Positions 669 through 35,377 of a stretch of 64,000 nucleotides of DNA are shown in pieces. The translations under genes and the position numbers were made by a program. The notes below the pieces were generated by a model. The model was not told where the DNA came from. It did no database searches and saw only the letters and a list, made by a program, of their open reading frames with translations. Positions within the stretch are counted from its first letter, which is position 1. Every line of letters starts with the position of its first letter. This DNA comes from Octopus vulgaris (lineage: Eukaryota). The DNA lies in contig OX597843.1 of assembly GCA_951406725.2 (NCBI GenBank), positions 12,028,001 to 12,092,000 of the forward strand. Reading direction: 5' to 3'.

Positions 669-710
<42 letters not shown>

Positions 711-717
711 TACATAT

Positions 718-2692: not shown

Positions 2693-2698
2693 TATATA

Positions 2699-9915: not shown

Positions 9916-10015
9916 NNNNNNNNNNNNNNNNNNNNNNNNNNNNNNNNNNNNNNNNNNNNNNNNNNNNNNNNNNNNNNNNNNNNNNNNNNNNNNNNNNNNN
10001 NNNNNNNNNNNNNNN
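9916..10015. other. Assembly gap (100 N)
   Basis: Exactly 100 n, a typical scaffolding placeholder. Confidence 0.99.
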
Positions 10016-10480
10016 GGGAGGGTCATTATGCCAATAACGATATGGTTACACATCTGACCAACTTCATAATCGATCGTTTGTTTAACGTGCTGGTTAAACA
10101 ATCAAGGTTTTATTTCTTCGTGAAAGTCCGTTCGTCGCTATTTTTCGCGACCTTTTCAATAGCTTGTCCTTTCTCTTCAACGTCTGCTCTGAATTTGGCC
10201 GCGAATTAATCTTATGTCTGCGTGCAAGCATGCCTTTCTATGTGTGTGTAGATGTGTGTTTGTTTAGAAGAATAAGGGTGAGAGGAAAGGAGATTATGTG
10301 CGTGCGTGCGAATGTGTATGTGTGTGTGTGTGTGTGCGTGCGTATGTGTGTGGTTGTGTGTACACTCGTGTGACTACTTGCATGTGTATGTGTACGTGTG
10401 TGTTAGTGTGTGTAGCCATCCATGACTAGGTATGTGTATGTATAACTGTGTCTATATACGCACATAGATTTATATGCAAG

Positions 10481-10711
10481 AGGCGGCGAGCTGGCAGAAG
10501 CGTTAGCACGCCGGGCGAAATGCTTAGCAATATTTCGTCTGCCGCTACGTTCTGTGTTCAAATTCCGCCGAGGTCGACTTTGCCTTTCATCCTCTCGGGG
10601 TCGATAAATAAAGTACCAGTTTCGCACTGGGTCGATGTAATCGACTTAATCCGTTTGTCTGTCCTTGTTTGTCCCCTCTATGTTTAGCCCCTTGTGGGTA
10701 GCAAAAGAAAT
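10481..10711 (+). mobile_element. tRNA-derived SINE type 1 (copy B)
   Basis: Duplicate of 175-405. Confidence 0.75.
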
Positions 10712-10965
10712 ATATACCATGTATATATGTGAATAGAAGCAGGCGTGACTGTGTTGTAAGCCGTTCCGGGTTCAGTCCAGCTGCGTGGCACTTTGAGCGG
10801 GTGTTTCTACTATAGCCCTGGGTCGACTAAACCCTTGTGAGTAGATTTGGTTGACGGAATCTGAAAAAGCTCGTCATATATGTGTTTATCAATATTTAGC
10901 AGAAGCAACAGAGTGACTCGAGGGGCGAGAGTTTCGTGTATTGACACTTGTCAAACTACACACAG

Positions 10966-11064
<99 letters not shown>

Positions 11065-11067
11065 TAT

Positions 11068-11335
11068 GCATGAGTGGCCGTGTGGTAAGTAGCCTGCTTA
11101 CCAACCACATGGTTCTGGGTTCAGCCCCATTGCGTGACGCCTTGGTCTTCTACTAGAGCCTCAGGCCAACCAAAGCCTTGTGAGTGAATTTGGTAGACGG
11201 AAACTGTGTGTGTGTTTGTGTTTGTCCCCCCGATGGTGGCATGTATATACATAATATTATTGGTCTTTCTTGCGAAATATATAGAATTACTTAAAGAAGT
11301 GTTCGGGTCGAAACAAGTAAAAGAATAAAAAAAAG
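11068..11335 (+). mobile_element. Decayed type-2 SINE (copy B), preceded by an expanded (CA)n
   Basis: Duplicate of 718-985. The (CA)n at ~10960-11060 is longer than in copy A. Confidence 0.7.
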
Positions 11336-11424
11336 AATATATATATATATATATGTACATTTTTACTTTTATATACATATTTATATTTATTGCATATCTT
11401 TTACTTTTTTATATTTATATATAA

Positions 11425-12739
11425 CTAGCAGAGATACCCGGCGTTGCTCGATTACATTCAATTGGAGAATTAGACTTTTCTGTTATATCTTCTGTGATGA
11501 ACTGGAATATCTATGTTTCGAATTTCATCAAAATTGCAGATGAGGGTTATTTCAATCTTTACACACCCTAAAAAATTGTAATCGTGCCACATGTATCCCA
11601 TAATCCTGATTTTTATGCGCATATTCCAAAATTCCAGTCTTATTTAACTTGTTAAAAAGATTTTGTTCCTGAAAAATGAAGGTCATGGAGCTCTAAAATG
11701 TGAGAACTAAGGCCCCTGTTGGGGGTGGGCATCTTAATGTCAACAAGAGAAGTTGAATTGTTGAAAATCTTTTTAACTTGGGTCTTATATCTATTGTTTG
11801 AATTTCTTTGAAATAGGAAATATATGTTCACTGGGTTTGTAAAAGAGAGCAAAGCTACAGGAAACCAAAAGACGAATGATCACAATAAGCAGTCAGTTAC
11901 CCTACCCTAGTCGTTACCACTCCTAATGTAGGATTCCTCACCATCCAGGTGACATGCACAGCCGTAAGATGCATTACGAATCTATAGCAATTGGAAGGGC
12001 GTGACCCAACTGAAATCAACATTAACAACTGTTTGACGTGAGAGCTAAGGAGAAATGAAAGTGTCACTTCTGTAGTTTGCAAATGACCACTATACTGATA
12101 CGTAACTGGACAGAATAAATTTAAAATCTATAAATGTCTTCGAATAACCAGTCACTCATCTGGGAAGGCCTTGAAATCAATGTTACCATCTGGGGACTAT
12201 GTGTGACCGAGTGATAATAAAAAGACTGAAAGGAGGTCTGCAATCAAATAAATTTTACTCTACACTTTGCAACTGAATCAGTGGAGGCAAGGATGCCTCT
12301 CATTTACTTGACAATTTATGCACCACATTGCAGAAATCACAATGTAAGTGTATGTCAAAGCAAACTGTTACACTGTTGTACCATTGAATTACAAATAATG
12401 CTCATCTTTTATGCTCGGGTAACCCTACAGCTTCCAAGAGCACAACTGTATTCATTTTTGCTTAGATAAAATGACAAAATTGTAGATGTTAAGTCCCCAT
12501 GGAGGGGTCTTTCTAACTTTGTAAGATGAAATTTTATAGATATTACTTCATTTGTGTCTAATGTCTATGGTTAAAATTTCATCAACAGCAAAAATATATG
12601 AATTGGCATGGGCGTTATGGCCCTTATGCATAGAATATAATTTCCAAATTTCATAAAGATCCATTCAGTACTTTTGACCAAGTTTTGGATCATAAAAGAA
12701 ATTACTAAAATTTGGGATTTATGGCTCCCATTAGGGTGT

Positions 12740-12780
<41 letters not shown>
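11425..12780 (-). mobile_element. Non-autonomous Helitron-like element (copy B)
   Basis: a|ctagcagagatacccggcgttgctcg at 11425; duplicate of 1075-2418. Confidence 0.6.
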
Positions 12781-12783
<3 letters not shown>

Positions 12784-13061
12784 CACACACACAAAGATAA
12801 ATTGATAGATACAACTGAGTGGGCAAACAAAAATATGAGACACAGCCTAGTGCTTTTTTATGTTGATAAGCCTAGTACTTACTCTATTAGTTTGTTCTTG
12901 TGAAACCAGTAAGTTATGTGGATGTAAATAAGTGAACAGCAGTTGTGAAGCAGTGATGAGGGCGAAACACAGAGACAAAGACACACACATACACTTACAT
13001 ATATACATACATATATATACGATTTATTTGTTACAGTTCCTGTCTACGAAATCCATATATA

Positions 13062-15652
13062 TTGTTGTTGGCATCCTTTTTGTCTCAGGAGACAATGGAG
13101 TTGCGCATAAAATAATCTAGTCCGGCTTTTACATTTCATGTCCTAATACATCTCTTGCTGTGGCTGTGTAACGGAAAAACCTCTCATCACTCCTGTTGAA
13201 TACTTGTAGTTCTCTGTTCACGTACGTCGCCAATCTCCACGGTTCTGGCAACTGCTTCCCAGTTGGTAATATTGATGTTGCAGGCATTCATGTCCCTTTT
13301 GCAAACATCCTTGTATCGTAAGAACGGTCTTCCCACAGACCTAGTGCCCCTAGCAAGCTCTCCGTTGAGTATGTCCTTGGGGATTCTGCCATCTTCCATA
13401 CGGCTAACATGTCCAAGCGATCTCATACGTCTTTGTGTGAAGAGTGCAAACATGCTTGGTATTCCTGCTTGCTTGAGGACATCTTTGTTAGGGACATGAT
13501 TCTGCCATTTGATGCGATGGATTTTCCGGAGACAGCGCAAGTGAAAGATATTTAGGCGACGTATGGCGTCGTATGGCGTGTGTATGGCGTCAAAGTCATA
13601 CAGTAGAGTGCTAAGTACACATGCCTGGTAAATCTTCATTTTTGTGGTCTTGGTCAGCTTATTGTTGTCCCATGCGCGTTTGGTGAGTTGGGCCATCACA
13701 GCAGCTGCCTTGCCAATGCGTATATTGAGCTCAGCATCAAGGGATAGGTTGTAGGTGACGGTAGAGCCAAGATAGGTAAACTTCTCCACCTCCTATACTC
13801 TGTGGTCTCCAATATGTATGTTTGGGATGTCCGATGTAGCCTGACCCATGATGTTGGTGTTCTTGAGGCTGATAACTAAGCCAAAGTTGCCAAATGCTTG
13901 CTCAGAACAGTTGCTGAGCCTTCGTAGGGCTTCTTCTGTGTGTGATACCAGAGCGGCATCATCAGCAAATAGCATCTCCTTGATCAGGACGCTTCTGAGA
14001 TTTTGGTCTTGGCACGCAGACGCGAGAGATTAAACAGTTTCCCATCACTTCTACTGTGCAGAAACACTCCATCATCTGATGTCTCAAAGGCATGTGACAG
14101 CAGCAGCGAGAAGAAGATGCCAAATTATGTAGGAGCAAGGACACAACCTTGCTCTACCCCATTTTTATTTGGAAGGCGGCTGATGTTGAACCATTGTGCT
14201 GTATGGTGCCTTGCATATTAGCATGGAATGATTTGATGATCCTCAGCAGCTTTGGTGGACATCCGATTTTTTGGAGCAGGATGAAGAGGCCTTTTCTACT
14301 TACCAAGTCAAAGCCCTTTGTCAGATCAATGAAGGCCATATATAATGGCATGTTCTGCTCTCTGGACTTCTGAAGTTGGCGTACGGAGAATATCATGTCA
14401 ATAGTTGATCTGCTTCTAAAGCCACACTGCGATTCTGGATAAATTCGAGAAGCAATTAGTTGCAGCCTGGACAGGATAATGCGAGCAGAGGCCTTTCCAA
14501 CTGTGCTTAGAAGATATATTCCACGGTAATTGTTACAATCATCACGGTCACTTTTATTTTTGTAAAGCGTAATGATGTTAGCATCCCGCATATTCTGAGG
14601 GACTGTACCCTCTTACCAGCACTGACACAGAAGCTCATGAATGTGCCGAAGCAGGATGGTATTTTTGCCGGTTTTGATGATCTCTAAGGGGATGCCGTCT
14701 TTCCCCGGAGCCTTGTTACTTGCTAGGGAGTCAATAGATTTGGTGAGCTCTGCTATAGATGGCAGACTGTCAAGTTCACACATGACTGGCAAGATCTTGA
14801 CACCCTCGATTGCAGCCTCAGCTACCTCTCGTGTGTAGGGATCCTGGTAGTACTCCATCCATGTATCCATTTGCTTGCTTTGGTCCTTGATGAGATCTCC
14901 AGTAGTTGATTTCAGAGGGGCTGAGGTGGTTGCGGATGGACCGAAGGCCTTCTTCAAACCGGCATACATCCCACGGGTGTCACCATTGTCAGCAGCTGAC
15001 TGGATACTCTGACAGATTTCCTGTCAATACCCATTTGCACAGCGTCTGGCAGTGAGTTGGGTTTTATTTCTTGCCTTTCTGAGTTCTTCGAGTGACTTTG
15101 TAGAAGAAACACTTTTGTATTGCATCAGAGCTGCACGCTTTGCTTCGATAACTGTTTCCAGCTCTGAGAGCCCAGCACTGAACAAAATCTGGGTTTTACC
15201 TTTCTCTCATTCCGAAAGTATCTATTGATGTGGTATACAAAGCTTCCCTGATATAATTCCACCTACTTTCAGCAGAGGAGGTTGGGCAGCTACTGAGGGC
15301 AACCTTGATAGAAACAGCAAAACATTGTCGCAGTGTAGGGTCCGAGGTTCTGGCAGTGTTAATGCTTGGTTGGCTCATTTTCTTGGAGTGATGGACTTTT
15401 TAGGCAGAATTCTCACCCTTCTTATTAGTGAATGATCTGTGTCACAATCCGCGCTACGGGTCAGTTGAACAGAATTCAGAAAGGATCTTCGTGTAATGAT
15501 GAGATCCAACTGATGCCAGTGGTGAGATCTTGGATGTCTCCAAGATGCCTTGTGGGATGTCTTGTTGGGAAAGAATGTGTTGGTGATGCACAGGTTATGG
15601 TATGTGCAAAATTCAAGTAGTCTCTGGCCATTGTCATTCATGTTGCCAATAC
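13062..15652 (-). mobile_element. 5'-truncated RTE-clade LINE (copy B)
   Basis: Same APE/RT fragments (ORFs 15375-15680, 14613-14969, 14154-14591, 13793-13975, 13187-13789). Retains RSVGRPFLRYKDVCKRDM, which copy A lacks. Confidence 0.95.
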
Positions 15653-16405
15653 TAAAACACATACACTTACATATATACATACATATATATATATACGATT
15701 GATTTGTTTCAGTTCCTGTCCACGAAATCCATATATATGTGAGACACTGCGTTGAGCTTTTTTAAATTTTGATAAACCTGGTACTTATTCTATCAGTTTC
15801 TTCTTGTGAAACCAGTATGTTATGGGGATGTAAATAAATGAACACCAGTTGTGAAGCAGTGATGAGGGAGAAACACAAAGACACACACACAGACTTACAT
15901 ACATACATAGATATATATACGATTGATTTCTTTCAGTTTCTGTCTACAAAATCCACTGACAAGGCTTTGGTTGGTCTCAGGCTATAGTAGAAGACACATG
16001 CCAAGTTACCACACAGTGGGACTGAACTGAGGACCATGCGTTTTGGAACCATAAGAATACTTATGCATAAATCTAAAATCTTAAATAATTTCTTTGTTAT
16101 TGTAGTATATATCAGTAAAAAAAATGGAATATTCCCAAAATTGCATGATTAACTTAAATGATTTTCATTTCTTATTTAAACGTAGTAATTCTCTTGAAAT
16201 AATCATTTTTTATCGATACCCAAAAACTGAACTTTCACAACTTGAATACTCACTATGTAGTGCCTTACTGCTGGATTTTACCTCGAGAAAGGAACCCCGA
16301 GGAAGGAGGGCTGAATTTCGAATACTTCGTACAACAAACGGCTGCAGGTTAGGAAAAAATTTTAATCGCCTCTTTCAATTTAGGTTTTTATTTTTCATGT
16401 TTATA

Positions 16406-16971
16406 TTGGGTTGTCCGGAAAGTTCGTTCCGATTTTTAAAGGAAAGTACATGGTCACTAAATACTTGCCATTACATTTTTAATGAACCAAATCTGAACCA
16501 TTTCGTTGCACAATACGTCTCCATCTTACATTTACCTTAAAATACCCTCTTCCCAGAATTGGGGTGGTTTCAAGGCAAATAATTCATCAAGGTATCTTTT
16601 TACGTCATCTAAGGAATTGAAATTTTCACCATTAAGACTATTCTGCAGAGACCTGAATAAGTGGAAATCCGAAGGAGTAATATCTGGTAAATATGGAGGG
16701 TGGGGTAAGTCACCCCAGCCAAGCTGCAGCAATTTTTATCTGGTTCCCAAAGCATCAAATGCCGATAATGAATTTTTCTCATCTTTTAATTTAAAGGGTT
16801 ACAGAATTAACACAGGTTATTGGAACATAAACCTTCTTCCACGAAAAGATAGATTAAACTGTGCTCCAAATGGAGGTGTAGTCAAATCCTATTTTATGGA
16901 CTCAAACATGTTCTAAAATAAGTCGAAAGATAAGCTACTATAAATCTGCAAGAACTTTCCGGACAACCCAA
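16406..16971 (-). mobile_element. Internally deleted mariner (copy B)
   Basis: Same TIRs and TA flanks as 5950-6516. Confidence 0.9.
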
Positions 16972-17370
16972 TATTTCTATATTTTTATCATGAAATTCTT
17001 AATATAAATATGTGGATATTCGTATGGAATAATACCTCATGTGCTACATCTGAATTTTCTTGTCTGAATGTTTTAAGACAAATATCCGAAATTTTTATCG
17101 TATACCACATTTTATTAATACTTAGCTCATATACGGAGACAAAAATGTTGTACTATATACTGCAGGTTATCTCCATTAAAATTATATTTAGTATTAGAAT
17201 TCTTCAAGTAGTATAAAAATGGTTATTGTCTGCATCATTCGAAAGCGAAATAAATTTTGCATAAGGTGTAAAAGATAAAAATAATTTGTATGGTGTTAGT
17301 AACAAAATATTTTGTAAGAAATAGAACTTTTATCGTCTGTCTTAAATATATTTTCGCCAGTGTATATATC

Positions 17371-19927
17371 TCAGGTCATCCCATAAGTTCTGTCTGAATT
17401 TTGGATAAATAATACAAGTGATCAAATGTTATATTTAATTGAAAGTTAATCATCAATGTACTTTCCCTAATTATCTATGACTTACCTCCATCTATTTACA
17501 AGCTTTTTAATCCCATCAACGTAAAACCCTTTTGGTTTCAAAGCGAAGAACTCTGAAATGTCAGGTTCGACCTCCTCCTGGCTTGCGAAAGTTGTATCCC
17601 CCTACTAATTCTGTAAACTATGAAACAAATGGTATCCTGAAGGAGTAAGGTCGGGAGAATAAGTTGGATGAAGAAATTTTTCCAAACCGACCCCTTCGAT
17701 CTTCTGTGATGTGATCTTTGCAGTGTGGGGTTGCGCATTGTCCTGATGAAACATCACTCGTTTTCGACTCACTAAAGCGGCTCTTTTTTCCTTCAAAGCT
17801 TGGTTCAAACGCTCTAATTGCTGACAGTAGACTTGAGCATTGATTGTTGCATTAGGTGGTAACAATATAAAGTGAATTACGCCTTTGCAATCGCACCAGA
17901 TAGAGAGTAGAACCTTTTTCCCATGAAGTTCCCTTCTCGGTTGTGGTTGAGAATTTTCCCTTTTACCAAGCCACTGTTTACGATGTCTAACATTTCGATA
18001 GAAAATCCATTTTTCATCACAAGTCTATCGAAAAAGGGTGAAATGAGTTTGCGAGAATGGAGAGAAGAGCAGATGCCAACTCGGGATTTGCGGTTGCTTT
18101 CGGACAATACCTATTTTCCAAGTTTAGGAATCTTTCCACGTTGTTGTAGATGACGATGAACTGTTGTATGGTTTGAAGTAAGCTTTATTGCCAATTCTTC
18201 AACTGATAATGACGGATTTTCTTCAAGTAATGCCTCAAGGAGCTTGTCAAACTCAACTGGACATCCTGTTCGATATTCATCTTCAATTTTGCAGACGATC
18301 TCCTGCAAGTTCTTTCATTCGAGCACTTTGCCATAAACTGAGTGTATGTTTCGAGTCACTTCGGCAGCAGAGTTACCTTTATTGTACTCATAAAGAATTA
18401 TATGTGCCTTAAATGCTCCTTGGATACTTCCATGTTGAAAGGGGTTTTAATCAAAGCAATTTTAGGGTGTCCACGAAGTCTGGGTTTATGGAATAAAATC
18501 ATAACATAAGAAATAATAATTTTCCTTTTTTACTTTTGTTTAAATTAAATAAAAAAATACTTTACATTTCTAAATTTATTTGTTATTTTTTCTACAGATG
18601 ATCGAATGATGGCTCTGTCTAAAGAAGAAAGAATCCCAGATCGAATGATGAATCTGTCTAAAGAAGAAAGAATCAAGTTAGTATTATTAAGTGGACGAGA
18701 GGGATGGTCTTATCGCAAAATTGCGGAAGAATTTAATCTTCCACACCCTTGTAGGCAACCTATTTATTTTACTGCCGTCAGGAAATTGATCAAGACATTT
18801 AAAGAAACAGGCAGTGTTTCGGATAAACCCCGTTCCGGGCGACCAAAGACTTCAGATGAAACTAAAGAGGCTGTCGAGGCTAAAGTTTCTGCTAGCTAGC
18901 CCCAAAAAATCACTTCGTCGGACATCTACGGTGTTAGGTGTTCCAAAACCAACCATCCACAAAATGCTGGTTGAGGAAAAGTTTCATCGATACAACCTAC
19001 AGATATTGCATCACTTAAATGAAGACGATCCTGATAGACGAATGTAGACGTGCGAATGGTTTTCAGATAAATTGGATGAAAATATCAATTTTACGAAAAA
19101 CTTTGTGTTGTTCAGTGACAAAGCTACGTTTTATGTAAATGGTGAGGTCAACAGACAGAATCTTCTATACTGGTCTCGAGGTAATCCACATTGGATGGAT
19201 CTATCCAAACAGCAAAAAGGTGATGGTGTGGTGTGGTTTTTGGAAAGCTCATGTTCTAGGACCCTTCTTCATTGAACATGTAACGGATGAGACTTATGCA
19301 AATATATTGAGAGACAAATTAATATCTTAAATTGAGCGCCTAGGCGAAAGCCTTCCGAATTGGTTTCAGCAGGATGGGGCCCCTACCCATTTTGCCACAA
19401 CTGTTAGAGATTGATTTAATGACACTTTTCCTCCTCACTAGATTGGAAGAAGGGGTCATATGGAATGGTCCCCTCGTTCACCAGACCTTTCTCCCCTTGA
19501 TTTCTTTTTCTGGGGTATGTTGAAAGAGAAAGTTTACTCAATAAAGATTACAGATTTAAAACACACGAGAGAACGCATTACCAGTCAGTGTGCTTAAATT
19601 GATGGCAATATAGACTTATTTAATCAAGTTCACCTGAATTTTGCAAGGCGCATCAAGTTATGCATTGAAAATGATGGAAATCACTTTGAAAATATTATTT
19701 ATTATAATTAAATAAAATTGTTTTGTTTTAAAAGTATGTGTTAATTCCCATGTACGCAGACTTTGTGGACACCGTCTATTATTTTGTAAAACAATATTGA
19801 ATTAGTTTAAATGTACACAAATGCATAAAAATAATTTTTAATTGAATTAGACATTTGCAAATACTATTAAATTTCATTCAACTCTAAAAAACAGGTAAAA
19901 TTGGACAGAACTGACTGGATGACTTGA
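17371..19927 (-). mobile_element. Decayed mariner with nested insertion (copy B)
   Basis: TIRs at 17371 and 19927. ORF 17605-17865: TINAQVYCQQLERL..FHQDNAQPH..YSPDL. Confidence 0.88.
18463..19778 (+). mobile_element. DD41D (rosa-type) transposon, pseudogenised (copy B)
   Basis: From 19361 the frame reads WFQQD-GAPTHFATTVRD*FNDTFPPH*IGRRGHMEWSPRSPDLSPL-D, giving 41 codons between the second and third catalytic Asp. Confidence 0.9.
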
Positions 19928-20169
19928 TATATATAATCTATGATATGATATTCTAGTAAGTTTCAAGTTTATAACACCTTGATATCTCATGTTATCTCAG
20001 TTTATATGCCTAAGACCTTTATTTTCTATTCTGGTTTTTATATATTTCTATACATTATATTTGTATCTATAATTTATTTTAAGCCGAAACATAATACGAT
20101 CCTTGTACGAACGAAAGAACAAGAATGTCCTCTGGAACGTTTATCTTCCACCGGCGTTTGTAATCGATG

Positions 20170-20490
20170 GTGACATGTGCGATGATTTTGCGACTATCTT
20201 ATATTTTACAGAGAAATTGGAAGCCCCGAATGTAAGTCAGCGCTTTATGCATAATTCAATATTCATAGTTCTCTATTTCCAACAGAAATTCTGTCCTCAA
20301 TAACTATAGATCTATTTCTAAATGTATTTCTTTTTCTTTTCCTTCATGCACTCCCGTTTGTCTCTTGACAAAGCTTTCTTTCTCCAGCGTCCACCACGTC
20401 ACGGTTAAACAGCCCTTACCGAAAATTTTGACTGTCCTGATTTTGTTAGCAGCTTTGACGTTCCACGTATCTCAAATTTTTATCTAATTT
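20170..20490 (-). pseudogene. Possible highly decayed N-terminus of a LINE APE endonuclease
   Basis: Minus-strand short motifs in APE order across frameshifts: TWNVK (~20460), CQET (~20365), EDRIS (~20290). Weak evidence. Confidence 0.3.
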
Positions 20491-20671
20491 GGTTTGGGGG
20501 AGCAATTGCTTTGACGAAGACGCATCTTGTTGCAATGCGGAGCAAGTAAAATTGCCAACATCTGAGGAAGAGTTGTTTCTTTTTTATATGCAGCCTTCAC
20601 GCTATATTTCTCTATGAATTTAAAATTCTTCTATCTTCTCCTTCAAAGAATTAAATAAGCTAAATAAATAA

Positions 20672-20677
20672 GCTGCG

Positions 20678-20726
<49 letters not shown>

Positions 20727-20733
20727 AAATAAA

Positions 20734-20796
<63 letters not shown>

Positions 20797-20831
20797 GTAA
20801 ATGTTGTTGCTGTTAAATGTTGCTGTTGCTG
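20672..20831. repeat. (GCT)n and (GTTGCT)n microsatellites
   Basis: Directly visible. Confidence 0.95.
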
Positions 20832-21575
<744 letters not shown>

Positions 21576-21612
21576 AGCCAAACCAAAGTATTAATAGTTG
21601 AACAAAGCCATG

Positions 21613-23986
21613 GCGCTCACTGTTAACGTCTCGTAGCCAAGCCGGACATTGAGCTAACGTAGCGCCACTGAGCGTAGCCGCTGGTCGCCGTAGCGCTCAC
21701 TGTTGTCTCGTAGCCGCGGACATTGAGCCCAACGGCGCCCAGAGCGAGCTCTGGTCGCCGTAGCGCTCACTGTTGTCTCGTAGCCGCGGACATTGAGCCC
21801 AACGGCGCCCAGAGCGAGCTCTGGTCGCCGTAGCGCTCACTGTTGTCTCGTAGCCGCGGACATTGAGCCCAACGGCGCCCAGAGCGAGCTCTGGTCGCCG
21901 TAGCGCTCACTGTTGTCTCGTAGCCGCGGACATTGAGCCCAACGGCGCCCAGAGCGAGCTCTGGTCGCCGTAGCGCTCACTGTTGTCTCGTAGCCGCGGA
22001 CATTGAGCTCAACGGCGCCCAGAGCGAGCTCTGGTCGCCGTAGCGCTCACTGTTGTCTCGTAGCCGCGGACATTGAGCCCAACGGCGCCCAGAGCGAGCT
22101 CTGGTCGCCGTAGCGCTCACTGTTGTCTCGTAGCCGCGGACATTGAGCCCAACGGCGCCCAGAGCGAGCTCTGGTCGCCGTAGCGCTCACTGTTGTCTCG
22201 TAGCCGCGGACATTGAGCCCAACGGCGCCCAGAGCGAGCTCTGGTCGCCGTAGCGCTCACTGTTGTCTCGTAGCCGCGGACATTGAGCCCAACGGCGCCC
22301 AGAGCGAGCTCTGGTCGCCGTAGCGCTCACTGTTGTCTCGTAGCCGCGGACATTGAGCCCAACGGCGCCCAGAGCGAGCTCTGGTCGCCGTAGCGCTCAC
22401 TGTTGTCTCGTAGCCGCGGACATTGAGCCCAACGGCGCCCAGAGCGAGCTCTGGTCGCCGTAGCGCTCACTGTTGTCTCGTAGCCGCGGACATTGAGCCC
22501 AACGGCGCCCAGAGCGAGCTCTGGTCGCCGTAGCGCTCACTGTTGTCTCGTAGCCGCGGACATTGAGCCCAACGGCGCCCAGAGCGAGCTCTGGTCGCCG
22601 TAGCGCTCACTGTTGTCTCGTAGCCGCGGACATTGAGCCCAACGGCGCCCAGAGCGAGCTCTGGTCGCCGTAGCGCTCACTGTTGTCTCGTAGCCGCGGA
22701 CATTGAGCCCAACGGCGCCCAGAGCGAGCTCTGGTCGCCGTAGCGCTCACTGTTGTCTCGTAGCCGCGGACATTGAGCCCAACGGCGCCCAGAGCGAGCT
22801 CTGGTCGCCGTAGCGCTCACTGTTGTCTCGTAGCCGCGGACATTGAGCCCAACGGCGCCCAGAGCGAGCTCTGGTCGCCGTAGCGCTCACTGTTGTCTCG
22901 TAGCCGCGGACATTGAGCCCAACGGCGCCCAGAGCGAGCTCTGGTCGCCGTAGCGCTCACTGTTGTCTCGTAGCCGCGGACATTGAGCCCAACGGCGCCC
23001 AGAGCGAGCTCTGGTCGCCGTAGCGCTCACTGTTGTCTCGTAGCCGCGGACATTGAGCCCAACGGCGCCCAGAGCGAGCTCTGGTCGCCGTAGCGCTCAC
23101 TGTTGTCTCGTAGCCGCGGACATTGAGCCCAACGGCGCCCAGAGCGAGCTCTGGTCGCCGTAGCGCTCACTGTTGTCTCGTAGCCGCGGACATTGAGCCC
23201 AACGGCGCCCAGAGCGAGCTCTGGTCGCCGTAGCGCTCACTGTTGTCTCGTAGCCGCGGACATTGAGCCCAACGGCGCCCAGAGCGAGCTCTGGTCGCCG
23301 TAGCGCTCACTGTTGTCTCGTAGCCGCGGACATTGAGCCCAACGGCGCCCAGAGCGAGCTCTGGTCGCCGTAGCGCTCACTGTTGTCTCGTAGCCGCGGA
23401 CATTGAGCCCAACGGCGCCCAGAGCGAGCTCTGGTCGCCGTAGCGCTCACTGTTGTCTCGTAGCCGCGGACATTGAGCCCAACGGCGCCCAGAGCGAGCT
23501 CTGGTCGCCGTAGCGCTCACTGTTGTCTCGTAGCCGCGGACATTGAGCCCAACGGCGCCCAGAGCGAGCTCTGGTCGCCGTAGCGCTCACTGTTGTCTCG
23601 TAGCCGCGGACATTGAGCCCAGCGGCGCCCAGAGCGAGCTCTGGTCGCCGTAGCGCTCACTGTTGTCTCGTAGCCGCGGACATTGAGCCCAACGGCGCCC
23701 AGAGCGAGCTCTGGTCGCCGTAGCGCTCACTGTTGTCTCGTAGCCGCGGACATTGAGCCCAACTGGCGCCCAGAGCGAGCTCTGGTCGCCGTAGCGCTCA
23801 CTGTTGTCTCGTAGCCGCGGACATTGAGCCCAACGGCGCCCAGAGCGAGCTCTGGTCGCCGTAGCGCTCACTGTTGTCTCGTAGCCGCGGACATTGAGCC
23901 CAACGGCGCCCAGAGCGAGCTCTGGTCGCCGTAGCGCTCACTGTTGTCTCGTAGCCGCGGACATTGAGCCCAACGGCGCCCAGAGC
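21613..23986. repeat. 70-bp GC-rich tandem array with a hairpin-forming unit: 32 full units plus partial or degenerate ends
   Basis: Unit tgttgtctcgtagccgcggacattgagcccaacggcgcccagagcgagctctggtcgccgtagcgctcac, first full unit at 21701. 46/70 GC and 9 CpG per unit. Only three variants seen (22009, 23622, +1 nt at 23764). Confidence 0.98.
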
Positions 23987-24173
23987 CCAGCTCAACACAC
24001 TCCTTATACCCTAAGGAAGGCATGTGTAAAATTTGAATGAAATTGGTTGAGTAGTTCTCAAGTTATAGGGAAATACACAGACAGACAGACACACATTCTC
24101 AGATACATAAAAGAATGAGAGTGGGTGATATTTTATATATACACACATTTATATATACGTATTTATATATAGA

Positions 24174-24204
<31 letters not shown>

Positions 24205-24381
24205 TTATAGGGTGAGTGAGGAAGATGGGCCCTAGCAACCACACCTTTTAAGATGGATTTCTAAGGTAGCCCACGAGCATCGTCACCTCATTCTACATGT
24301 CCCTGTAAACTTTGGAGCGAATCGGACGGGATGTAGTGGCATTGAAAGCGATAAAACGCATTTCAGTTTTATATAGAGAGA
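23987..24381 (-). mobile_element. Helitron-like 5'-terminal region adjoining the 70-bp array
   Basis: catgtgtaaaatttgaatgaaattggttgagtagtt...cacagacagacagacacac parallels the 5'-proximal part of 44810-45445. It ends cagttttatatagagaga|t (minus A|TC), compared with cagttttatatatataga|t at 45445. Confidence 0.5.
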
Positions 24382-27300
24382 TATATATAGATATATATAT
24401 ATATAAATATATAAAAATTATATATATGTATACAAATATATACAAATTATATATATGTATACAAATACATACAAATTATATACATGTATGTAAATACATC
24501 CAAATTATATACATGTATGTAAATATATACAAATTATATACCTGTATGTAAAATATACAAATTATATATATGTATACAAATTATATATATGTATATAAAA
24601 GTATACAAATTATATATATGTATATAAATGTATACAAATTATATATATATGTATATAAACGTATACAAATTATATATATGTATATAAACGTATACAAATA
24701 ATATATATGTATATAAACGTATACAAATTATATATATGTATATAAATGTATACAAATTATATATATGTATATAAATATAAACATTATATATATGTATATA
24801 AAGATATACAAATTATATATATGTATATATATATATATATACAAATTATATATATGTATATATATATATATATACAAATTATATATATGTATATATATAT
24901 ATACAAATTATATATATGTATATATATATATACAAATTATATATATGTATATATATATATACAAATTATATATATGTATATAAATATATACAAATTATAT
25001 ATATGTATATAAATATATACAAATTATATATATGTATATAAATATATACAAATTATATATATGTATATAAATATATACAATTATATATATGTATATAAAT
25101 ATACAAATTATATATATGCATACAAATATATAGAAATTATATTTATGTGTACAAATATATAGAAATTATATTTATGTATACAAATATATACAAATTATAT
25201 ATATGTATATATATATGTACAAATTATATATATGTATACAAATATATACAAATTATATATATGTATACAAATATATACAAATTATATATATGTATACAAT
25301 ATATACAAATTATATATGTATACAAATATATACAAATAATTTATATGTATACAAATATATACAAATCATATATATGTATACATATATATACAAATTATAT
25401 ATATGTATACATATATATACAAATTATATATATGTATACAAATATATACAAATTATATATATGTATACAAATATATACAAATTATATATATGTATACGAA
25501 TATATACAAATTATATATATGTATACAAATATATACAAATTATATATATGTATACAAATATATACAAATTATATGTATGTATACAAATATATACAAATTA
25601 TATATATGTATGCAAATATATTCAAATTATATATATGTATACAAATATATACAAATTATATATATGTATACAAATATATACAAATTATATATATGTATAC
25701 AAATATATACAAATAATATATATGTATACAAATATATACAAATTATATGTATGTATACAAATATATACAAATTATATATGTGTATACAAATATATACAAA
25801 TTATATATATGTATACAAATATATACAAATTATATATATGTATACAAATATATACAAATTATATATATGTATACAAATTATATATATGTATACAAATATA
25901 TACAAGTTATATATATGTATATAAGTATATACAAGTTATATATATGTATATAAATATATAAATTATATATGTATAATATATACAAATTATATATATGTAT
26001 ATAATTATATACAAATTATATATATGTATATAAATATATACAAATTATATATATGTATATAAATATATACAAATTATATATATGTATATAAATATATACA
26101 AATTATATATATGTATACAAATATATATATGTATACAAATATATACAAATTATATATATATATACAAATATATACAGATTATATATATGTATACAAATTA
26201 TATATATGTATACAAATATATACAAATTATATATGTGTATACAAATATATACAAAAGGTATATATATGTATACAAATATATACAAATTATATATATGTAT
26301 ACGAATATATACTTTTTATATATGTATACAAATATATACAAATTATATATATGTATACAAATATATACAAATTATATATATGTATACAAATATATACAAA
26401 TTATATATATGTATACAAAATATATACAAATTATATATATGTATACAAATTATATATATGTATATAAAAGTATACAAATTATATATATGTATATAAATGT
26501 ATACAAATTATATATATATGTATATAAACGTATACACATTATATATATGTATATAATACGTATACAAATAATATATAGGTATATAAACGTATATAAATTA
26601 TATATATGTATATAAATGTATACAAATTATATATATGTATATAAATATATACTAATTATATATATGTATATAAATATAAACATTATATATATGTATATAA
26701 AGATATACAAATTATATATATGTATATATATATATATACAAATTATATATATGTATATATATATATACAAATTATATATATGTATATATATATATACAAA
26801 TTATATATATGTATATATATATATACAAATTATATATATGTATATATATATATACAAATTATATATATGTATATAAATATATACAAATTATATATATGTA
26901 TATAAATATATACAAATTATATATATGTATATAAATATATACAAATTATATATATATATATACAAATTATATATATGTGTATAAATATATAGAAATTATA
27001 CAAATGTATATATATATATACAAATTATATATATGTATATATGTATACAAATTATATATATGTATATTAATATATACAAATTATATATATGCATACAAAT
27101 ATATACAAATTATATATATGTATACAAATTATATATATGTATACAAATATATACAAATTATATATATGCATACAAATATATACAAATTATATATATGTAT
27201 ACAAATTTTTATATGTATACAAATATATACAAATAATATATATGTATACAAATATATACAAATCATATATATGTATACATATATATACAAATTATATATA

Positions 27301-30300
27301 TGTATACATATATATACAAATTATATATATGTATGCAAATATATACAAATTATATATATGTATACAAATATATACAAATTATATATATGTATACAAATAT
27401 ATACAAATTATATATATGTATACAAATATATAGAAATTATATATATATGTATACAAATATATACAAATTATATATATGTATACAAATATATACAAATTAT
27501 ATATATGTATACAAATATATACAAATTATATATATGTATACAAATATATACAAATTATATATATGTATACAAATATATACAAATTATATATATGTATACA
27601 AATATATACAAGTTATATATATGTATACAAATATATACAAATTATATATATGTATACAAATATATACAAATTATATATATGTATACAAATATATACAAAT
27701 TATAGATATGTATACAAATATATACAAATTATAGATATGTATATAAATATATACAAATTATAGATATGTATATAAATATATACAAATTATATATATGTAT
27801 ATAATTATATACAAATTATATATATGTATATAATTATATACAAATTATATATATGTATATAATTATATACAAATTATATATATGTATATAATTATATACA
27901 AATTATATATATGTATATAAATAAATACAAATTATATATATGTACATAAATATATACAAATTATATATATGTATACAAATATATATATGTATACAAATAT
28001 ATACAAATTATATATATATATACAAATATATACAGATTATATATATGTATACAAATTATATATATGTATACAAATATATACAAATTATATATGTGTATAC
28101 AAATATATACAAATGGTATATATATGTATACAAATATATACAAATTATATATATGTATACAAATATATACAAATTATATATATGTATACGAATATATACT
28201 TTTATATATGTATACAAATATATACAAATTATATATATGTATACAAATATATACAAATTATATATATGTATACAAATATATACAAATTATATATATATAT
28301 AGAATATATACAATAATATATATATGTATACAAATATACACAACTTATATATATGTATACAAATATATACACATTATATATATGTATACAAATTATATAT
28401 ATGTAAATAAACATATACAAATTATATATGTATATAAATATATACAAATTATATATATGTATATAAATATATACAAATTATATATCTGTATATAAATATA
28501 TACAAATTATATATATGTATATAAATATATAAAACTTATATATATGTATACAAATATATACAAATTATATATATGTATACAATCATATACAAGTTATATA
28601 TATGTATACAAATAGGTACAAATCATATATATGTATACAAATATATACAAGTTATATATATGTATACAAATATATACAAATTATATATATGTATAAAATA
28701 TATACAAATTATATATATGTATACAAATATATACAAATTATATATATAAATACAAATATATAGTTTTTATATATGTATACAAATATATACAAATTATATA
28801 TATGTATACAAATATATACAAATTATATTTATGTATATAAATATATACAAATTATAGATATGTATATAAATATATACAATTTATAGATATGTATATAAAT
28901 ATATACAAATTAAATATATGTATATAATTATATACAAATTATATATATGTATATAAATAAATACAAATTATATATAAGTACATAAATATATACAAATTAT
29001 ATATATGTATACAAATATATACAAATTATATATATGTATACAATTACATACAAATTTTATGTATGTATACAAATATATGCAAATTATATATATGTATACA
29101 AATATATACAAATGGTATATATATGTATACAAATATATACAAATTATATATATGTATACAAATATATACAAATTATATATATGTATACGAATATATACTT
29201 TTATATATGTATACAAATATATACAAATTATATATATGTATACAAATATATACAAATTATATATATGTATACAAATATATACAAATTATATATATGTATA
29301 CAAATATATACAAATAATATATATGTATACAAATATATACAAATTATATATATGTATACAAATATATACAAATTATATACATATATACGAATATATACAA
29401 ATAATATATATATGTATACAAATATATACAACTTATATATATGTATACAAATATATACACATTATATATATGTATTCAAATTATATATATGTAAATAAAC
29501 ATATACAAATTATATATATGTATATAAATATATACAAATTATATATATGTATATAAATATATACAAATTATATATCTGTATATAAATATATACAAATTAT
29601 ATATATGTATATAAATATATAAAACTTATATATATGTATACAAATATATACAAATTATATATATGTATACAAATATATACAAATTATATATATGTATACA
29701 AATATATACAAATTATATATATGTATACAAATATATACAAATTATATATATGTATAAAAATATATACAAATTATATATATGTATACAAATATATACAAAT
29801 TATATATATGTATACAAATATATACAAATTATATATATGTATACAAATATATAAAAATTATATATATGTATACAAATATATACAAATTATATGTATGTAT
29901 ATAAATATATACATATTATATTTATGTATATAAATATTTACAAATTATAGATATGTATATAAATATATACAATTTATAGATATGTATATAAATATATACA
30001 AATTAAATCTATGTATATAATTATGTACAAATTTTATATATGTATATAAATAAATACAAATTTTATATATGTATATAAATATATACAAATTATATATATG
30101 TACATAAATATATACAAATTATATATATGTATACAAATTATATATATGTATACAAATATATACAAATTATATATATGTATACAAATATATACAAATTATA
30201 TATATGTATACAATACATACAAATTTTATATATGTATACAAATATATACAAATTATATATATGTATACAAATATATACAAATTATATATGTGTAAACAAA

Positions 30301-33300
30301 TATATGCAAATAATATATATGTATACAAATATATACAAATTATATATATGTATACAAATATATACAAATTATATATATATATACAAATATATACAAATAA
30401 TATATATATGTATACAAATATATACAACTTATATATATGTATACAAATATATACACATTATATATATGCATACAAATTATATATATGTAAATAAACATAT
30501 ACAAATTATATATATGTATATAAATATATACAAATTATATATCTGTATATAAATATATACAAATTATATATACGTATATAAATATATAAAATATATATAT
30601 ATGTATACAAATATATACAAATTATATATATGTATACAAATATATAGAAATTATATATATGTATACAAATATATACAAATTATATATATGTATACAAATA
30701 TATACACATTATATATATATATACAAATATATACAAGTTATATATATGTATAGAAATATATACAAATTATATATATGTATACAAATATATACAAATTATA
30801 TATATGTATACAAATAAATACAAATTATATATATGTATACAAATATATAGTTTTTATATATGTATACAAATATATACAAATTATATATATGTATACAAAT
30901 ATATACATATTATATGTATGTATATAAATATATACATATTATATTTATGTATATAAATATATACAAATTATAGATATGTTTATAAATATATACAATTTAT
31001 AGATATGTATATAAATATATACAAATTAAATCTATGTATTTAATTATATACAAATATTATATATGTATATAAATAAATACAAATTATATATATGTACATA
31101 TATATATACGAATTATATATATGTATACAAATATATACATGTATACAAATATATACAAATTAGGTATATGTATACAAATATATACAAATTATATATATGA
31201 ATACAATTACATACAAAGTTTATATATGTATACAAATATATACAAATTATATATGTGTATACAGATATATACAAATGGTATATATATGTATACAAATATA
31301 TACAAATTATATATATGTATACAAATATATACAAATTATATATATGTATACGAAAATATACTTTTTATATATGTATACAAATATATACAAATTATATATA
31401 TGTATACAAATATATACAAATTATATATATGTATACAAATATATACAAATTATATATATGTATACAAATATATACAAATTATATATATGTATACAAATAT
31501 ATACAAATATATATATATATATACAAATATATACATATATTATATATATGTATACAAATATACACAACTTATATATATGTATACAAATATATACACATTA
31601 TATATATGTATACAAATTATATATATGTAAATAAACATATACAAATTATATATATGTATATAAATATATACAAATTATATATCTGTATATAAATATATAC
31701 AAATTATATATATGTATATAAATATATAAAACTTATATATATGTATACAAATATATACAAATTATATATATGTATACAAATATATACAAATTATATATAT
31801 GTATACAAATATATACAAATTATATATATGTATACAAATATATACAAATTATATATATGTATACAAATATATACAAATTATATATATATGTATACAAATA
31901 TATACAAATTATATATATGTATACAAATATATACAAATTATATGTATGTATACAAATATATACAAAATATATGTATGTATATAAATATATACAAATTATA
32001 TTTATGTATATAAATATATACAAATTATAGATATGTATATAAATATATACAATTTATAGATATGTATATAAATATATACAAATTAAATATATGTATATAA
32101 TTATATACAAATTATATATATGTATATAAATAAATACAAATTATATATATGTACATAAATATATACAAATTATATATATGTATACAAATATATATATGTA
32201 TACAGATATATACAAATTATATATATGTATACAAATATATACAAATTATATATATGTATACAATTACATACACATTTTATATATGTATACAAATATATAC
32301 AAATTATATATATGTATACAAATATATAGAAATTATATATATGTATAAAAATATATACAAATTATATATATGTATACAAATATATACAAATTATATATAT
32401 GTATACAAATATATACAAATTATATATGTGTATACAAATATATACAAATGGTATATATATGTATACAAATGTATACAAATTCTTATATATGTATACAAAT
32501 ATATACAAATTATTTATATGTATGCAAATATATACAAATCATATATATGTATACAAATATATACAAATTATATATATGTATATGAATATATACAAATTAT
32601 ATATATATATATATATGAATATATACAAATTATATATATGTATATGAATATCTACAAATTATATACATGCATATGAATATCTACAAAATAGATACATGCA
32701 TATGAATATCTACAAATTATATACATGCATGTGAATATATACAAATTATATATATGCATATGAATATATACAAATTATATATATGCATACAAATATATAC
32801 AAATTATATATATGCATATGAATATATACAAACTATATATATATGCATATGAATATATACAAATTATATATATGTATATTAATATATACAAATTATATAT
32901 ATGCATATAAATATATACAAATTATATATATGCATACAAATATATACAAATTATAAATATGCATATAAATACATACAACTTTTATATATGAATATAAATA
33001 TGTACAAATTATATATATGTATACAAATATATACAAATTATATATATGTATACAAATTATATATATGTATACAAATTATATATTTGTATATAAACGTATA
33101 CAAATTATATATTTGTATATAAACGTATACAAATTATATATTTGTATATAAATGTATAGAAATTATATATAATTATATATATAATTTGTATATATTTATA
33201 TACATATATATAAATATATACAAATTATATATATGTATATAAATATATACAAATTATATATATGTATATGAATATATACAAATTATATATATGTATATGA

Positions 33301-35185
33301 ATATATACAAATTATATATATGTATATGAATATATACAAATTATATATATGTATATGAATATATACAAATTATATATATGTATATGAATATATACAAGTT
33401 ATATATATGTATATGAATATATACAAATTATATAAATGTATATGAATATATACAAATTATTTAAATGTATATGAATATATACAAATTATATAAATGTATA
33501 TGAATATATACAAATTATATATATGTATATGAATATATACAAATTATATAAATGTATATGAATATATACAAATTATATATATGTATATGAATATATACAA
33601 ATTATATATATGTATATGAATATATACAAATTATATATATGTATATGAATATATACAAATTATATATATGTATATGAATATATACAAATTATATATATGT
33701 ATATGAATATATACAAATTATATATATGTATATGAAGATATACGAATTGCATATATGTATATGAAGATATACGAATTACATATATGTATATGAAGATATA
33801 CGAATTACATATATGTATATGAAGATATACGAATTACATATATGTATATGAAGATATACGAATTACATATATGTATATGAAGATATACGAATTACATATA
33901 TGTATATAAATATATACAAATTATATATTTGTATATGAATATATACAAATTACATATATGTATATGAAAATATGCAAATTATATATATGTATATGAAGAT
34001 ATATAAATTATATATATGCATACAAATTATATATATGTATATATGTATACAAATTATATATATGTATATATGTATACAAATTATATATATGTATATAAAT
34101 GTATACAAATTATATATATGTATATAAATGTATACAAATTATATATATGTATATAAATGTATACAAATTATATATATGTATATGAATATGTACAAATTAT
34201 ATATATATATATATGAAGATATACAAATTATATATATGCATACAAATTATATATATGTATATAAACGTATACAAATTATATATATGTATATAAACGTATA
34301 CAAATTGTATATTTGTATATAAATATATACAAAATATATATAAATATAAATATAATTAGTATATATCAATATACATATATATAAATATATACAAATTATA
34401 TATATGTATATAAATATATACAAATTATATATATGTATATAAATATATACAAATTATATATATGTATATAAATATATACAAATTATATATATGTATATGA
34501 ATATATACAAATTATATATATGTATATGAATATATACAAATTATATATATGTATATAAACATATACAAATTATATATATGTATATAAATATATACAAATT
34601 ATATATATGTGTATAAATATATACAAATTATATATATGTATTTAAATATATACAAATTATGTATATGTGTATATAAATATATACAAATTATATATTTGTA
34701 TATAAATATATACAAATTATATATATGTATATGAATATATACAAATTATATACATGTATATGAATATATACAAATTATATACATGTATATGAATATATAC
34801 AAATTATATACATGTATATGAATATATACAAATTATATACATGTATATGAATATATACAAATTATATATATGTATATGAAGATATACAAATTATATATAT
34901 GTATATGAAGATATACAAATTATATATATGCATACAAATTATATATATGTATATAAACGTATACAAATTATATATTTGTATATAAATATATACAAAATAT
35001 ATATAATTATAAATATAATTAGTATATATATATATACATATATATAAATATATACAAATTATATATATGTTTATAAATATATACAAATTATATATTTGTA
35101 TATAAATATATACAAATTATATATATGTATATAAATATATACAAATTATATATATGTATATGAAGAATATACAAGTTATATACAT

Positions 35186-35377
35186 AGAGCGCAATGGCCT
35201 AGTGGTTAGGGCAGCGGATCGCAGGATCGTTTCGATTTCAGACCGGGCTTTGAGTGTGTTTATTGAGCGAAAACATAAAATCTACGATCCGGCAGGGGTG
35301 TGATCCCTGCTGTACTCTTTCACCACAATGGCGGTGTATATGGCACAGCTCATAGCTGAAATATATACAAACATAAA
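35186..35377 (+). mobile_element. Deletion-riddled duplicate of the satellite-embedded SINE at 38083
   Basis: gcgcaatggcctagtggttagggcagcgga...; same satellite flanks as 38083-38301. Confidence 0.85.

What the first reader, a model, noticed from the sequence alone, without database searches (positions are those of the whole stretch)
21613..23986. Homogeneous array of ~33 long GC-rich hairpins in an AT desert
Seen: 54 of each 70 nt form one imperfect stem, aca-t-tgagc-cca-acggcg-c-ccagagc [ga] gctctgg-t-cgccgt-agc-gctca-c-tgt (22 Watson-Crick pairs, 4 single mismatches), separated by a 16-nt linker. The unit is 66% GC with 9 CpG, only three variants were seen in 2.3 kb, and there is no CpG decay, while both neighbours are extremely AT-rich. 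Inference: the stem has the size and mismatch spacing of a pre-miRNA or endo-siRNA precursor, so the array could be a polycistronic hairpin-RNA locus, a multivalent dsRNA (ADAR/Dicer) substrate, or a cruciform-forming DNA boundary next to the satellite. It may equally be a neutral recent expansion.
Basis: partly seen in the sequence, partly recalled or inferred. Interest (0 to 1): 0.72.

Follow-up and report, generated by a model that had tools for sequence, protein, structure and literature searches.

The report
Hairpin repeat riding nested giant transposons
The hairpin array is a variable-length repeat inside a rolling-circle transposon that itself sits inside a cut-and-paste transposon family reaching tens of kilobases, with copies at dozens of sites in this genome, so it is likely selfish cargo rather than a small-RNA gene, and the AT-rich run on its left is likely a sequencing error.

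Summary
The array is real: 33 units, 22-pair stem, fold z -3.0/-3.7. It is not a unique locus. The same unit forms 82 arrays of 1-58 units on 20 contigs among the loci fetched. It lies inside a compound non-autonomous Helitron (window 11425-24381, minus strand, TC...CTAG). A sister lineage still shows free Helitron ends in unrelated flanks. In the window's lineage the terminator hairpin is weakened in 12 of 12 cases, and the Helitron is nested in a 268-bp-TIR, GG-ended element. That element has exact 8/9-bp target duplications in 13 of 15 end pairs (6-66 kb; 23 kb shared collinearly between two copies). The window's own right end was not found. Stem arms show double changes at a few pairs but also fixed breaks; template switching likely explains them without selection. 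The neighbouring microsatellite expanded with the array. The left 'AT desert' is likely a base-calling error for (AAGCC)n; the right satellite is cargo. Small-RNA output was not testable. Helitron-borne tandem repeats are known (oyster, Drosophila); the giant TIR carrier and apparent vehicle switch are the less ordinary part. The scan had noted GG-ended 8-bp-TSD MITEs in this genome, but not this unit.

The parts
21681..23986 (.). 70-bp tandem array; each unit is two 26-nt inverted arms separated alternately by 16 nt and by GA
21575..21680 (.). irregular first unit and linker; likely miscalled version of the (AAGCC)n end plus the short linker seen in sister copies
   Evidence: sister copies; loose ends
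20679..21574 (.). (GCT/GTT)n + (TAAA)n run; likely base-calling error for a long (AAGCC)n microsatellite
   Evidence: 22 of 22 short tracts have no such run; 16 of 17 long tracts read mainly as TAAA, GCTG/GTTG or GGAT mixtures, 1 as GAGCC/AAGCC; loose ends; C15 copy reads (AAGCC)n
23987..24110 (-). conserved mini-Helitron block with a GTCT-type microsatellite; in other copies it runs into a TC 5' end
   Evidence: (355 first-look candidates)
24207..24381 (-). Helitron 5' end (TC at 24381, A before it); 88% identical to the 5' end of the RepHel-bearing copy on C15
11425..11456 (-). Helitron 3' end: CTAG followed by T, terminator hairpin weakened (-1.3 kcal/mol vs -4.7 in most lineage-B copies)
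11425..24381 (-). compound non-autonomous Helitron (about 13 kb as assembled) holding the array, microsatellite and transposon fragments
18466..19773 (+). broken Tc1-like element carried as cargo (terminal inverted repeat; homeodomain-like HTH matches below Pfam cut-off; Tc1 label recalled)
17605..18021 (-). mariner-type transposase fragment (Transposase_1, E 9.9e-26), cargo
13190..15740 (-). broken LINE with reverse-transcriptase fragment (RVT_1, E 1.9e-14; RTE label recalled), cargo
24391..44803 (.). 29-bp AT-rich satellite; follows the array in a sub-lineage of copies and lies inside the TIRs in two of them
1..44803 (+). part of the large TIR carrier inside the window; its left TIR is at G000:C30:12015296, 12.7 kb before the window; right TIR not found in the window or the next 10 kb

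Best explanation
The array is a variable-length palindromic repeat inside a compound non-autonomous Helitron that is nested in a large GG-ended, 8-bp-TSD DNA transposon, and it is likely neutral cargo that expands locally. Shown: the nesting, both kinds of ends in sister copies, the target duplications, and array sizes of 1-58 units. Inferred history: the module first spread by rolling-circle transposition (lineage B). One copy landed in a roughly 1-kb TIR element family, its 3' terminator weakened, and it has since moved by cut-and-paste as part of 8-40-kb units (lineage A), using an unidentified, Merlin-like transposase. Inferred mechanism: in lineage A the array and its neighbouring microsatellite grew together by slippage, unequal exchange or gap repair. 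Single-stranded hairpins during replication or repair promote template switches, which would copy changes from one arm to the other and create the rearrangement joints seen at the units.
For: All 18 arrays taken from the unit search share the window's left body, and 14 of 18 show the right-hand block (3 end in gaps, 1 runs into satellite). Lineage B: 5 of 10 regions show the homologous CTAG|T end in unrelated flanks, 4 of these also an A|TC end 8.4-12.5 kb away, and 0 of 10 have the TIR within 10 kb. Lineage A: 12 of 12 occurrences have the weakened hairpin and one shared flank. A C15 copy carries a broken RepHel gene (Helitron_like_N 7.6e-52, PIF1 2.2e-63; GLP motif) between this module and the same 5' end. 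Carrier: TIRs of 259-269 bp in 4 of 4 measured; 12 exact 8-bp, 1 exact 9-bp and 2 imperfect duplications in 15 end pairs; the 39.1- and 29.9-kb copies share 23 kb collinearly at 95.4%, and the 21.8-kb copy shares 17.7 kb with the window's copy. All 27 arrays of 8 or more units are lineage A; array size tracks microsatellite tract length (rho 0.64, n 39). Stem-breaking states are fixed in whole arrays (pair 23 mismatched in 19 of 49 lineage-A arrays). A 58-77-nt inverted copy of the element's own body sits inside the array in 5 of 5 lineage-B copies tested (one inherited event).
Against: The window's own right TIR and target duplication were not found, nor a right TIR for 6 other left ends within the 9-10 kb fetched. 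No transposase with these TIRs was found (30 Merlin loci; 30 MULE loci; 1.5-kb flanks only). No empty site was aligned for the Helitron. Covariation exceeds the shuffles (5 pairs with two-sided change, 6 of 500 shuffles), though that control ignores relatedness. The shared mismatches are not corrected above chance (7 of 18 events restore pairing once the four pair-11 cases that match lineage A are set aside; 11 of 22 with them; about a third expected), which weakens a strong template-switch rate. Two of 12 fully fetched carriers lack the unit. Large lineage-B arrays could have been missed, because lineage B was sampled by one exact pattern.
Confidence: 0.76

Rival explanations
1. The hairpin is selected as single-stranded DNA: it helps the Helitron during rolling-circle transposition (pause, terminator or protein site), and the array is an amplified cis-element.
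For: The transposed (minus) strand folds better as DNA (-25/-26 kcal/mol, z -5.7/-6.0) than the plus strand (-18/-21). Two-sided changes keep pairs 13, 20, 21 and 26. The G-C state of pair 13 occurs on three spacer backgrounds.
Against: The long arrays all lie in the lineage whose Helitron end is weakened and fixed in one flank. The same mini-Helitron block also occurs with ordinary upstream sequence and no unit. Lineage B has 21-22 pairs and several fixed mismatches.
Confidence: 0.11
2. The array is a functional polycistronic hairpin-RNA locus (endo-siRNA, miRNA-like or ADAR substrate), perhaps silencing its own carrier.
For: Stem size and mismatch spacing resemble precursors. Covariation is above the shuffle and slide controls. 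Three mismatch positions are shared by both lineages.
Against: No Rfam family at gathering score; the best hits are 37 of 197 bits, generic hairpin matches. Copy number is 1-58 with array-specific fixed breaks. The unit sits deep in transposon debris, and its microsatellite neighbour expanded in step. Two adjacent units fold into a long cross-unit duplex instead of separate hairpins. Template switching can make compensatory changes without selection (PMC8794818, abstract and opening).
Confidence: 0.07
3. The homogeneity, or the array itself, is an assembly artefact of consensus collapse.
For: The adjacent microsatellite is likely miscalled, 3 of 18 sister arrays end in gaps, and the window's left part is duplicated across a gap.
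Against: The 27 long arrays have 13 different array-specific consensus units; collapse would pull them to one. A contig of public run X2 matches 67 nt of this exact variant and one of X17 96 nt, each with no difference.
Confidence: 0.03
4. The shared 20-30 kb are segmental duplications, and the TIR element only marks their ends.
For: Interiors differ by many insertions and deletions between copies; the 65.6-kb and 27.4-kb copies share only about 20 and 7 kb with others.
Against: Homology stops at the first TIR base in 6 of 6 copies on five contigs, with unrelated flanks, and 13 of 15 end pairs have locus-specific exact target duplications.
Confidence: 0.03

Closest known systems
Cg_HINE elements of Crassostrea gigas carrying satellite-like arrays (PMC7492417, passages) and Drosophila DINE-1 central repeats (PMC4067079, passages)
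   Same: Non-autonomous rolling-circle element with a GTCY-type microsatellite, conserved flanks and a central tandem array of variable copy number, dispersed over the genome; subfamilies change in array and flank together.
   Different: The ends here are canonical Helitron (TC...CTAG between A and T; partner with GLP motif, no endonuclease seen), not Helentron subTIRs in TT; the monomer is itself a long palindrome; the element is a 8-13-kb compound with other transposons inside.
Merlin superfamily (PMC8101967, passages)
   Same: GG termini, TIR within 24-462 bp, 8- or 9-bp target duplication.
   Different: No Merlin transposase was found with these TIRs; the Merlin elements seen in G000 start with other TIRs; the derivatives here reach 6-66 kb.
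Multicopy Pack-TIRs and Pack-MULEs (PMC8277862, passages)
   Same: TIR ends with foreign interior, several copies with distinct target duplications.
   Different: That animal survey capped interiors at 5 kb and found four multicopy cases in reference genomes; the interiors here are 6-39 kb or more and consist of transposons and satellites, with no host gene looked for.
TIR elements as satellite carriers: Tetris and miDNA4 (PMC12628747, passages; PMC7492417, one passage)
   Same: A DNA transposon spreads internal tandem repeats that then expand.
   Different: Here the repeat came in with a nested Helitron, and several unrelated repeats (70-bp, pentamer, 29-bp, 21-bp) expand in one carrier.
Nanopore repeat miscalling, TTAGGG read as TTAAAA (10.1101/2022.01.11.475254, passages)
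   Same: A long simple repeat is written as other, unrelated repeats mixed with the true one.
   Different: The (AAGCC)n case is not in the passages read; no raw signal was available and the platform behind G000 was not established.

Membership tests
Canonical Helitron (features from PMC4067079) | 5' TC end | tested here: met
   window 24381; 4 of 5 lineage-B outer ends, 1 decayed into (TA)n
Canonical Helitron (features from PMC4067079) | 3' CTRR end with 16-20-nt palindrome about 11 nt upstream | tested here: met
   CTAG in 5 lineage-B and 12 lineage-A occurrences; hairpin -4.7 kcal/mol in 4 of 5 B, weakened in 12 of 12 A
Canonical Helitron (features from PMC4067079) | insertion between A and T without target duplication | tested here: inconclusive
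   flanking bases are A and T in 4 copies with both ends; no empty site aligned
Canonical Helitron (features from PMC4067079) | RepHel partner with GLP motif | tested here: met
   broken RepHel in the C15 copy, same 5' end at 88%; absent from the window copy
Helentron / HINE | GSP motif and C-terminal endonuclease in the partner | tested here: not met
   GLP; only Pif1 domains in the last frames scanned
Helentron / HINE | subterminal inverted repeats and TT target | tested here: not met
   ends are TC and CTAG between A and T; no dedicated subTIR search was run
Merlin | 5'-GG termini and TIR of 24-462 bp | tested here: met
   GG ends, 259-269-bp TIRs in 4 of 4 measured
Merlin | 8- or 9-bp target duplication | tested here: met
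   12 exact 8-bp, 1 exact 9-bp, 2 imperfect of 15 large pairs; 2 exact, 1 near, 2 none of 5 short elements
Merlin | DDE_Tnp_IS1595 transposase bounded by the same TIRs | tested here: inconclusive
   150 matches in G000; none of the 30 fetched is bracketed by this TIR within 1.5 kb; 120 not examined
MULE / Phantom | MULE transposase linked to these TIRs | tested here: inconclusive
   0 of 30 fetched MULE loci match the TIR within 1.5 kb; flanks too short for large elements
hAT | 8-bp duplication with short TIRs and hAT transposase (recalled) | tested here: inconclusive
   duplication length fits, TIR length does not; hAT transposases were not searched
pre-miRNA / hairpin endo-siRNA locus | stable 50-70-nt hairpin | tested here: met
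pre-miRNA / hairpin endo-siRNA locus | precise mature and star reads with 2-nt overhangs | not testable with these tools
   only assembled contigs were available
pre-miRNA / hairpin endo-siRNA locus | match to a curated RNA family | tested here: not met
   19 matches at E up to 10, none near its gathering score
Pack-TIR | captured host (non-TE) sequence with an identifiable parent locus | not tested
   20 ORFs scanned gave only transposon domains or nothing; no parent search

The most novel reading that the evidence does not exclude
The array is a transposon-borne hairpin-RNA cassette: its symmetry is kept by selection, it feeds Dicer or ADAR with double-stranded RNA that tunes the activity of its own carrier, and a switch of vehicle from Helitron to a giant Merlin-like element spread it, with newborn satellites, to dozens of loci.
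Probability: 0.07. Interest if true: 0.75.

Novelty: new variant of a known kind. Interest (0 to 1): 0.4.

Why it matters
The array alone is an ordinary kind of object: a Helitron-internal tandem repeat. Three points carry value. First, a multicopy, non-autonomous TIR family moving 10-40-kb units of nested transposons and satellites is far above the 5-kb ceiling of the one animal Pack-TIR survey read here, and fragment-based repeat annotation would miss it. Second, the two lineages catch a repeat changing vehicle, with the old terminator weakened, which makes satellite birth and dispersal testable with dated, TSD-marked copies. Third, long (AAGCC)n tracts seem to be written as (TAAA)n or (GCT/GTT)n in this assembly, so AT deserts beside such elements should not be interpreted. 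It is also a clean warning that arm covariation in a DNA palindrome need not mean a functional RNA.

Tried and rejected
Expression: no RNA holder listed. Four runs guessed to be RNA were laid on 23850-24375; contigs of 3 of 4 covered the unit, but RNA status is a guess and contigs show no strand, level or small RNA, so this is used neither for nor against. No contig of the four runs covered 21600-21680; a hole proves nothing and is not counted. Octopus miRNA paper PMC9699675: six search terms (five distinct 12-nt arm words) not found in four supplementary files; those files may not list sequences, so inconclusive. Origin of the unit from the parent mini-Helitron: best alignment no better than shuffles (173-289 of 300), rejected. 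Systematic correction of stem mismatches: not above chance. Autonomous partner of the carrier: not found among 30 Merlin and 30 MULE loci. The 65.6-kb copy as proof of a 65-kb jump: rejected, since about 28 kb is a 21-bp satellite and only 20 kb is shared. Right TIR of the window's copy: not in the window or next 10 kb; carrier pieces at 46.7-50.7 kb lie inverted. Block-follows-array count of 56 of 82 is biased by block-based searches and is not used. Earlier notes by sequence: none for the unit or the TIR; none near. Literature searches listed no description of this unit or carrier; Repbase, Dfam and the deposited library of PMC13282606 could not be searched, so 'unreported' is not established.

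Full report
Observation. The array is as described. TRF gives period 70, 33.8 copies and 99% matches. Of 33 anchor-to-anchor units, 29 are identical, three differ at one site and the first is an irregular 80-mer. The 54-nt stem has 22 pairs and 4 mismatches and folds better than 199 and 200 of 200 shuffles on the two strands. The unit is two 26-nt inverted arms separated alternately by 16 nt and by GA, so arms can pair within a unit, across the junction, or between units.

It is a dispersed family. The window is G000:C30:12028001-12092000 in a 2.8-Gb genome. Its repeats look octopus-like to me (recalled), and earlier scan notes say the same. A two-unit query gave 363 matches from 40 of 191 candidates, and the 22-nt junction occurs 641 times exactly, control 0. 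Among the loci fetched I counted 672 ungapped units in 82 arrays on 20 contigs, 1 to 58 units each; this is a sample, not a census. All 18 arrays chosen from the unit search share the window's left flank at 86-97%, and 14 of 18 show the same right flank. A second lineage (B), found through loose ends, has a changed unit and usually (AACCC)n in place of (AAGCC)n.

Vehicle 1, a compound Helitron. On the minus strand the window has a TC end at 24381 and a CTAG end at 11425. Five of 10 lineage-B regions show the homologous CTAG|T end in unrelated flanks. Four of these also show an A|TC end 8.4-12.5 kb away, and none of the 10 has the TIR described below within 10 kb. These are the canonical Helitron ends (PMC4067079, passages). 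A copy on C15 has, between this module and a 5' end 88% identical to window 24207-24407, a broken RepHel gene with Helitron_like_N and PIF1 domains and the Helitron-type GLP motif. Its array position is an assembly gap. The window copy is therefore likely a deletion derivative. The layout of microsatellite, conserved block and central tandem repeat matches oyster Cg_HINE and DINE-1 (PMC7492417, passages; PMC12628747, passages), but the ends are not Helentron ends.

Vehicle 2, a large TIR element. In lineage A homology runs past the Helitron end and stops at one base, 12.7 kb before the window, in 6 of 6 copies on five contigs. That base starts a 268-bp inverted repeat beginning GG. Of 15 end pairs 6.2-65.6 kb apart, 12 have an exact 8-bp duplication, one an exact 9-bp one, and two are imperfect (read from flanks, computed). 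Six other left ends and the window's own had no right TIR in the DNA fetched. Nine of 12 fully fetched elements hold the unit, one has a gap there and two lack it. The 39.1- and 29.9-kb copies share 23 kb collinearly at 95.4%, and the 21.8-kb copy shares 17.7 kb with the window's, so units of 20 kb or more likely moved as such. The 65.6-kb copy is inflated by about 28 kb of a 21-bp satellite. Related elements of about 1 kb exist. Ends and duplication fit Merlin (PMC8101967, passages), but none of 30 Merlin or 30 MULE loci carries this TIR, so I say Merlin-like and do not file it. In lineage A the Helitron terminator is weakened and sits in one shared flank in 12 of 12 occurrences, against an intact hairpin in 4 of 5 lineage-B copies. 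I read this as a change of vehicle (inferred; no rooted tree was built).

The AT desert. In 39 arrays with the body in view, the 22 tracts of 163 bp or less between body and array contain pentamer repeats or almost nothing and no long TAAA run. Of the 17 tracts of 489 bp or more, 16 read mainly as TAAA, GCTG/GTTG or GGAT, often mixed with AAGCC, and one as GAGCC/AAGCC, in elements whose flanks are about 95-97% alike. Contigs of two of four public runs continue leftwards from the unit into AAGCC repeats (table 7; library type not on record). This resembles nanopore repeat miscalling (10.1101/2022.01.11.475254, passages). The 29-bp satellite on the right follows the array in several copies and lies inside the TIRs in two, so it is cargo, not a neighbour to be fenced off.

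Is the hairpin selected? For: pairs 13, 20, 21 and 26 change on both sides. On 46 of the 95 distinct clean units, 5 of 23 pairs show two-sided change, with 6 of 500 shuffles as high, and slid controls are lower; that control ignores relatedness, and pairs 20-21 are one lineage split. Against: mismatches are fixed in whole arrays (pair 23 in 19 of 49 lineage-A arrays, including this one; pair 18 in 4; pair 24 in 3), and changes at mismatch columns restore pairing in 7 of 18 cases, or 11 of 22 if four lineage-B cases matching lineage A are kept (554 of 670 units passed the filter). Template switching can produce compensatory changes without selection (PMC8794818, abstract and opening), and an inverted 58-77-nt copy of the element's own body lies inside five lineage-B arrays. 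All 27 arrays of 8 or more units are lineage A, with median internal divergence 1.4% and 13 array-specific consensus units. This fits recent local expansion and argues against collapse. Array size tracks microsatellite length (rho 0.64; 15 of 15 long arrays have long tracts), so expansion is not special to the hairpin. Rfam gives no family. Low CpG loss needs no special cause, since octopus transposons are barely methylated, satellites somewhat more (PMC9476566, passages).

Verdict. The finding is a real palindromic tandem repeat of a known kind, likely neutral, inside an unusual double vehicle. Shown: array, dispersal, both kinds of ends in sister copies, target duplications, shared interiors. 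Inferred: order of events, transposase, expansion and symmetry mechanisms, base-calling error. Untested: small-RNA output. PMC13282606 (parts 1-2 of 3 read) lists recently active Helitron and Merlin families in an octopus but gives no sequences in the text; its library could bear on novelty and was not seen.

Noticed in passing
window 1-9915 and 10309-20407: Near-duplicate of about 10 kb (96.6-99%) on either side of a 100-N gap; either a tandem duplication inside the carrier or both haplotypes assembled in a row.
   Followed up: no
window 44600-53615: Carrier pieces and a second 29-bp satellite block lie inverted relative to sister copies, with short internal duplications; rearrangement or misassembly may explain the missing right TIR.
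   Followed up: partly
L176:1687-6202 (G000:C15): A broken RepHel Helitron gene inside an 18.3-kb TIR element with an exact 8-bp duplication: a Helitron coding region moved by cut-and-paste.
   Followed up: partly
G000:C4:29914636-29980207: 65.6-kb TIR pair with exact duplication; a 21-bp AT satellite of about 28 kb starts at the array and has stray units inside it.
   Followed up: partly
L038:5820-5860, L032, L035, L036; similar at window 48545-48585: A near-perfect palindrome with CTAG at both ends abuts a Helitron TC end, looking like two 3' ends back to back.
   Followed up: no
G000:C7:45382446-45397883 and C8:94427853-94445988: The C7 carrier is inserted into another copy of the mini-Helitron block and the C8 carrier apparently into a SINE, so their empty sites can be read from the repeat (SINE label recalled).
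   Followed up: no
L256 (G000:C5:66816066-66816236): Fold-back inversion inside a lineage-B array: units face each other.
   Followed up: no
G000:C30: 9 of the 27 long arrays lie on this 21-Mb contig; may reflect local hopping or search bias toward the window's variant.
   Followed up: no
L184-L213: Many Merlin transposase frames of about 300 aa without stops, several with their own GG-ended TIRs and apparent 8-9-bp duplications.
   Followed up: no
L111, L112 (G000:C31): A 184-bp tandem array built from a dispersed repeat also present at window 10531-10712 lies within the carrier's left part.
   Followed up: no
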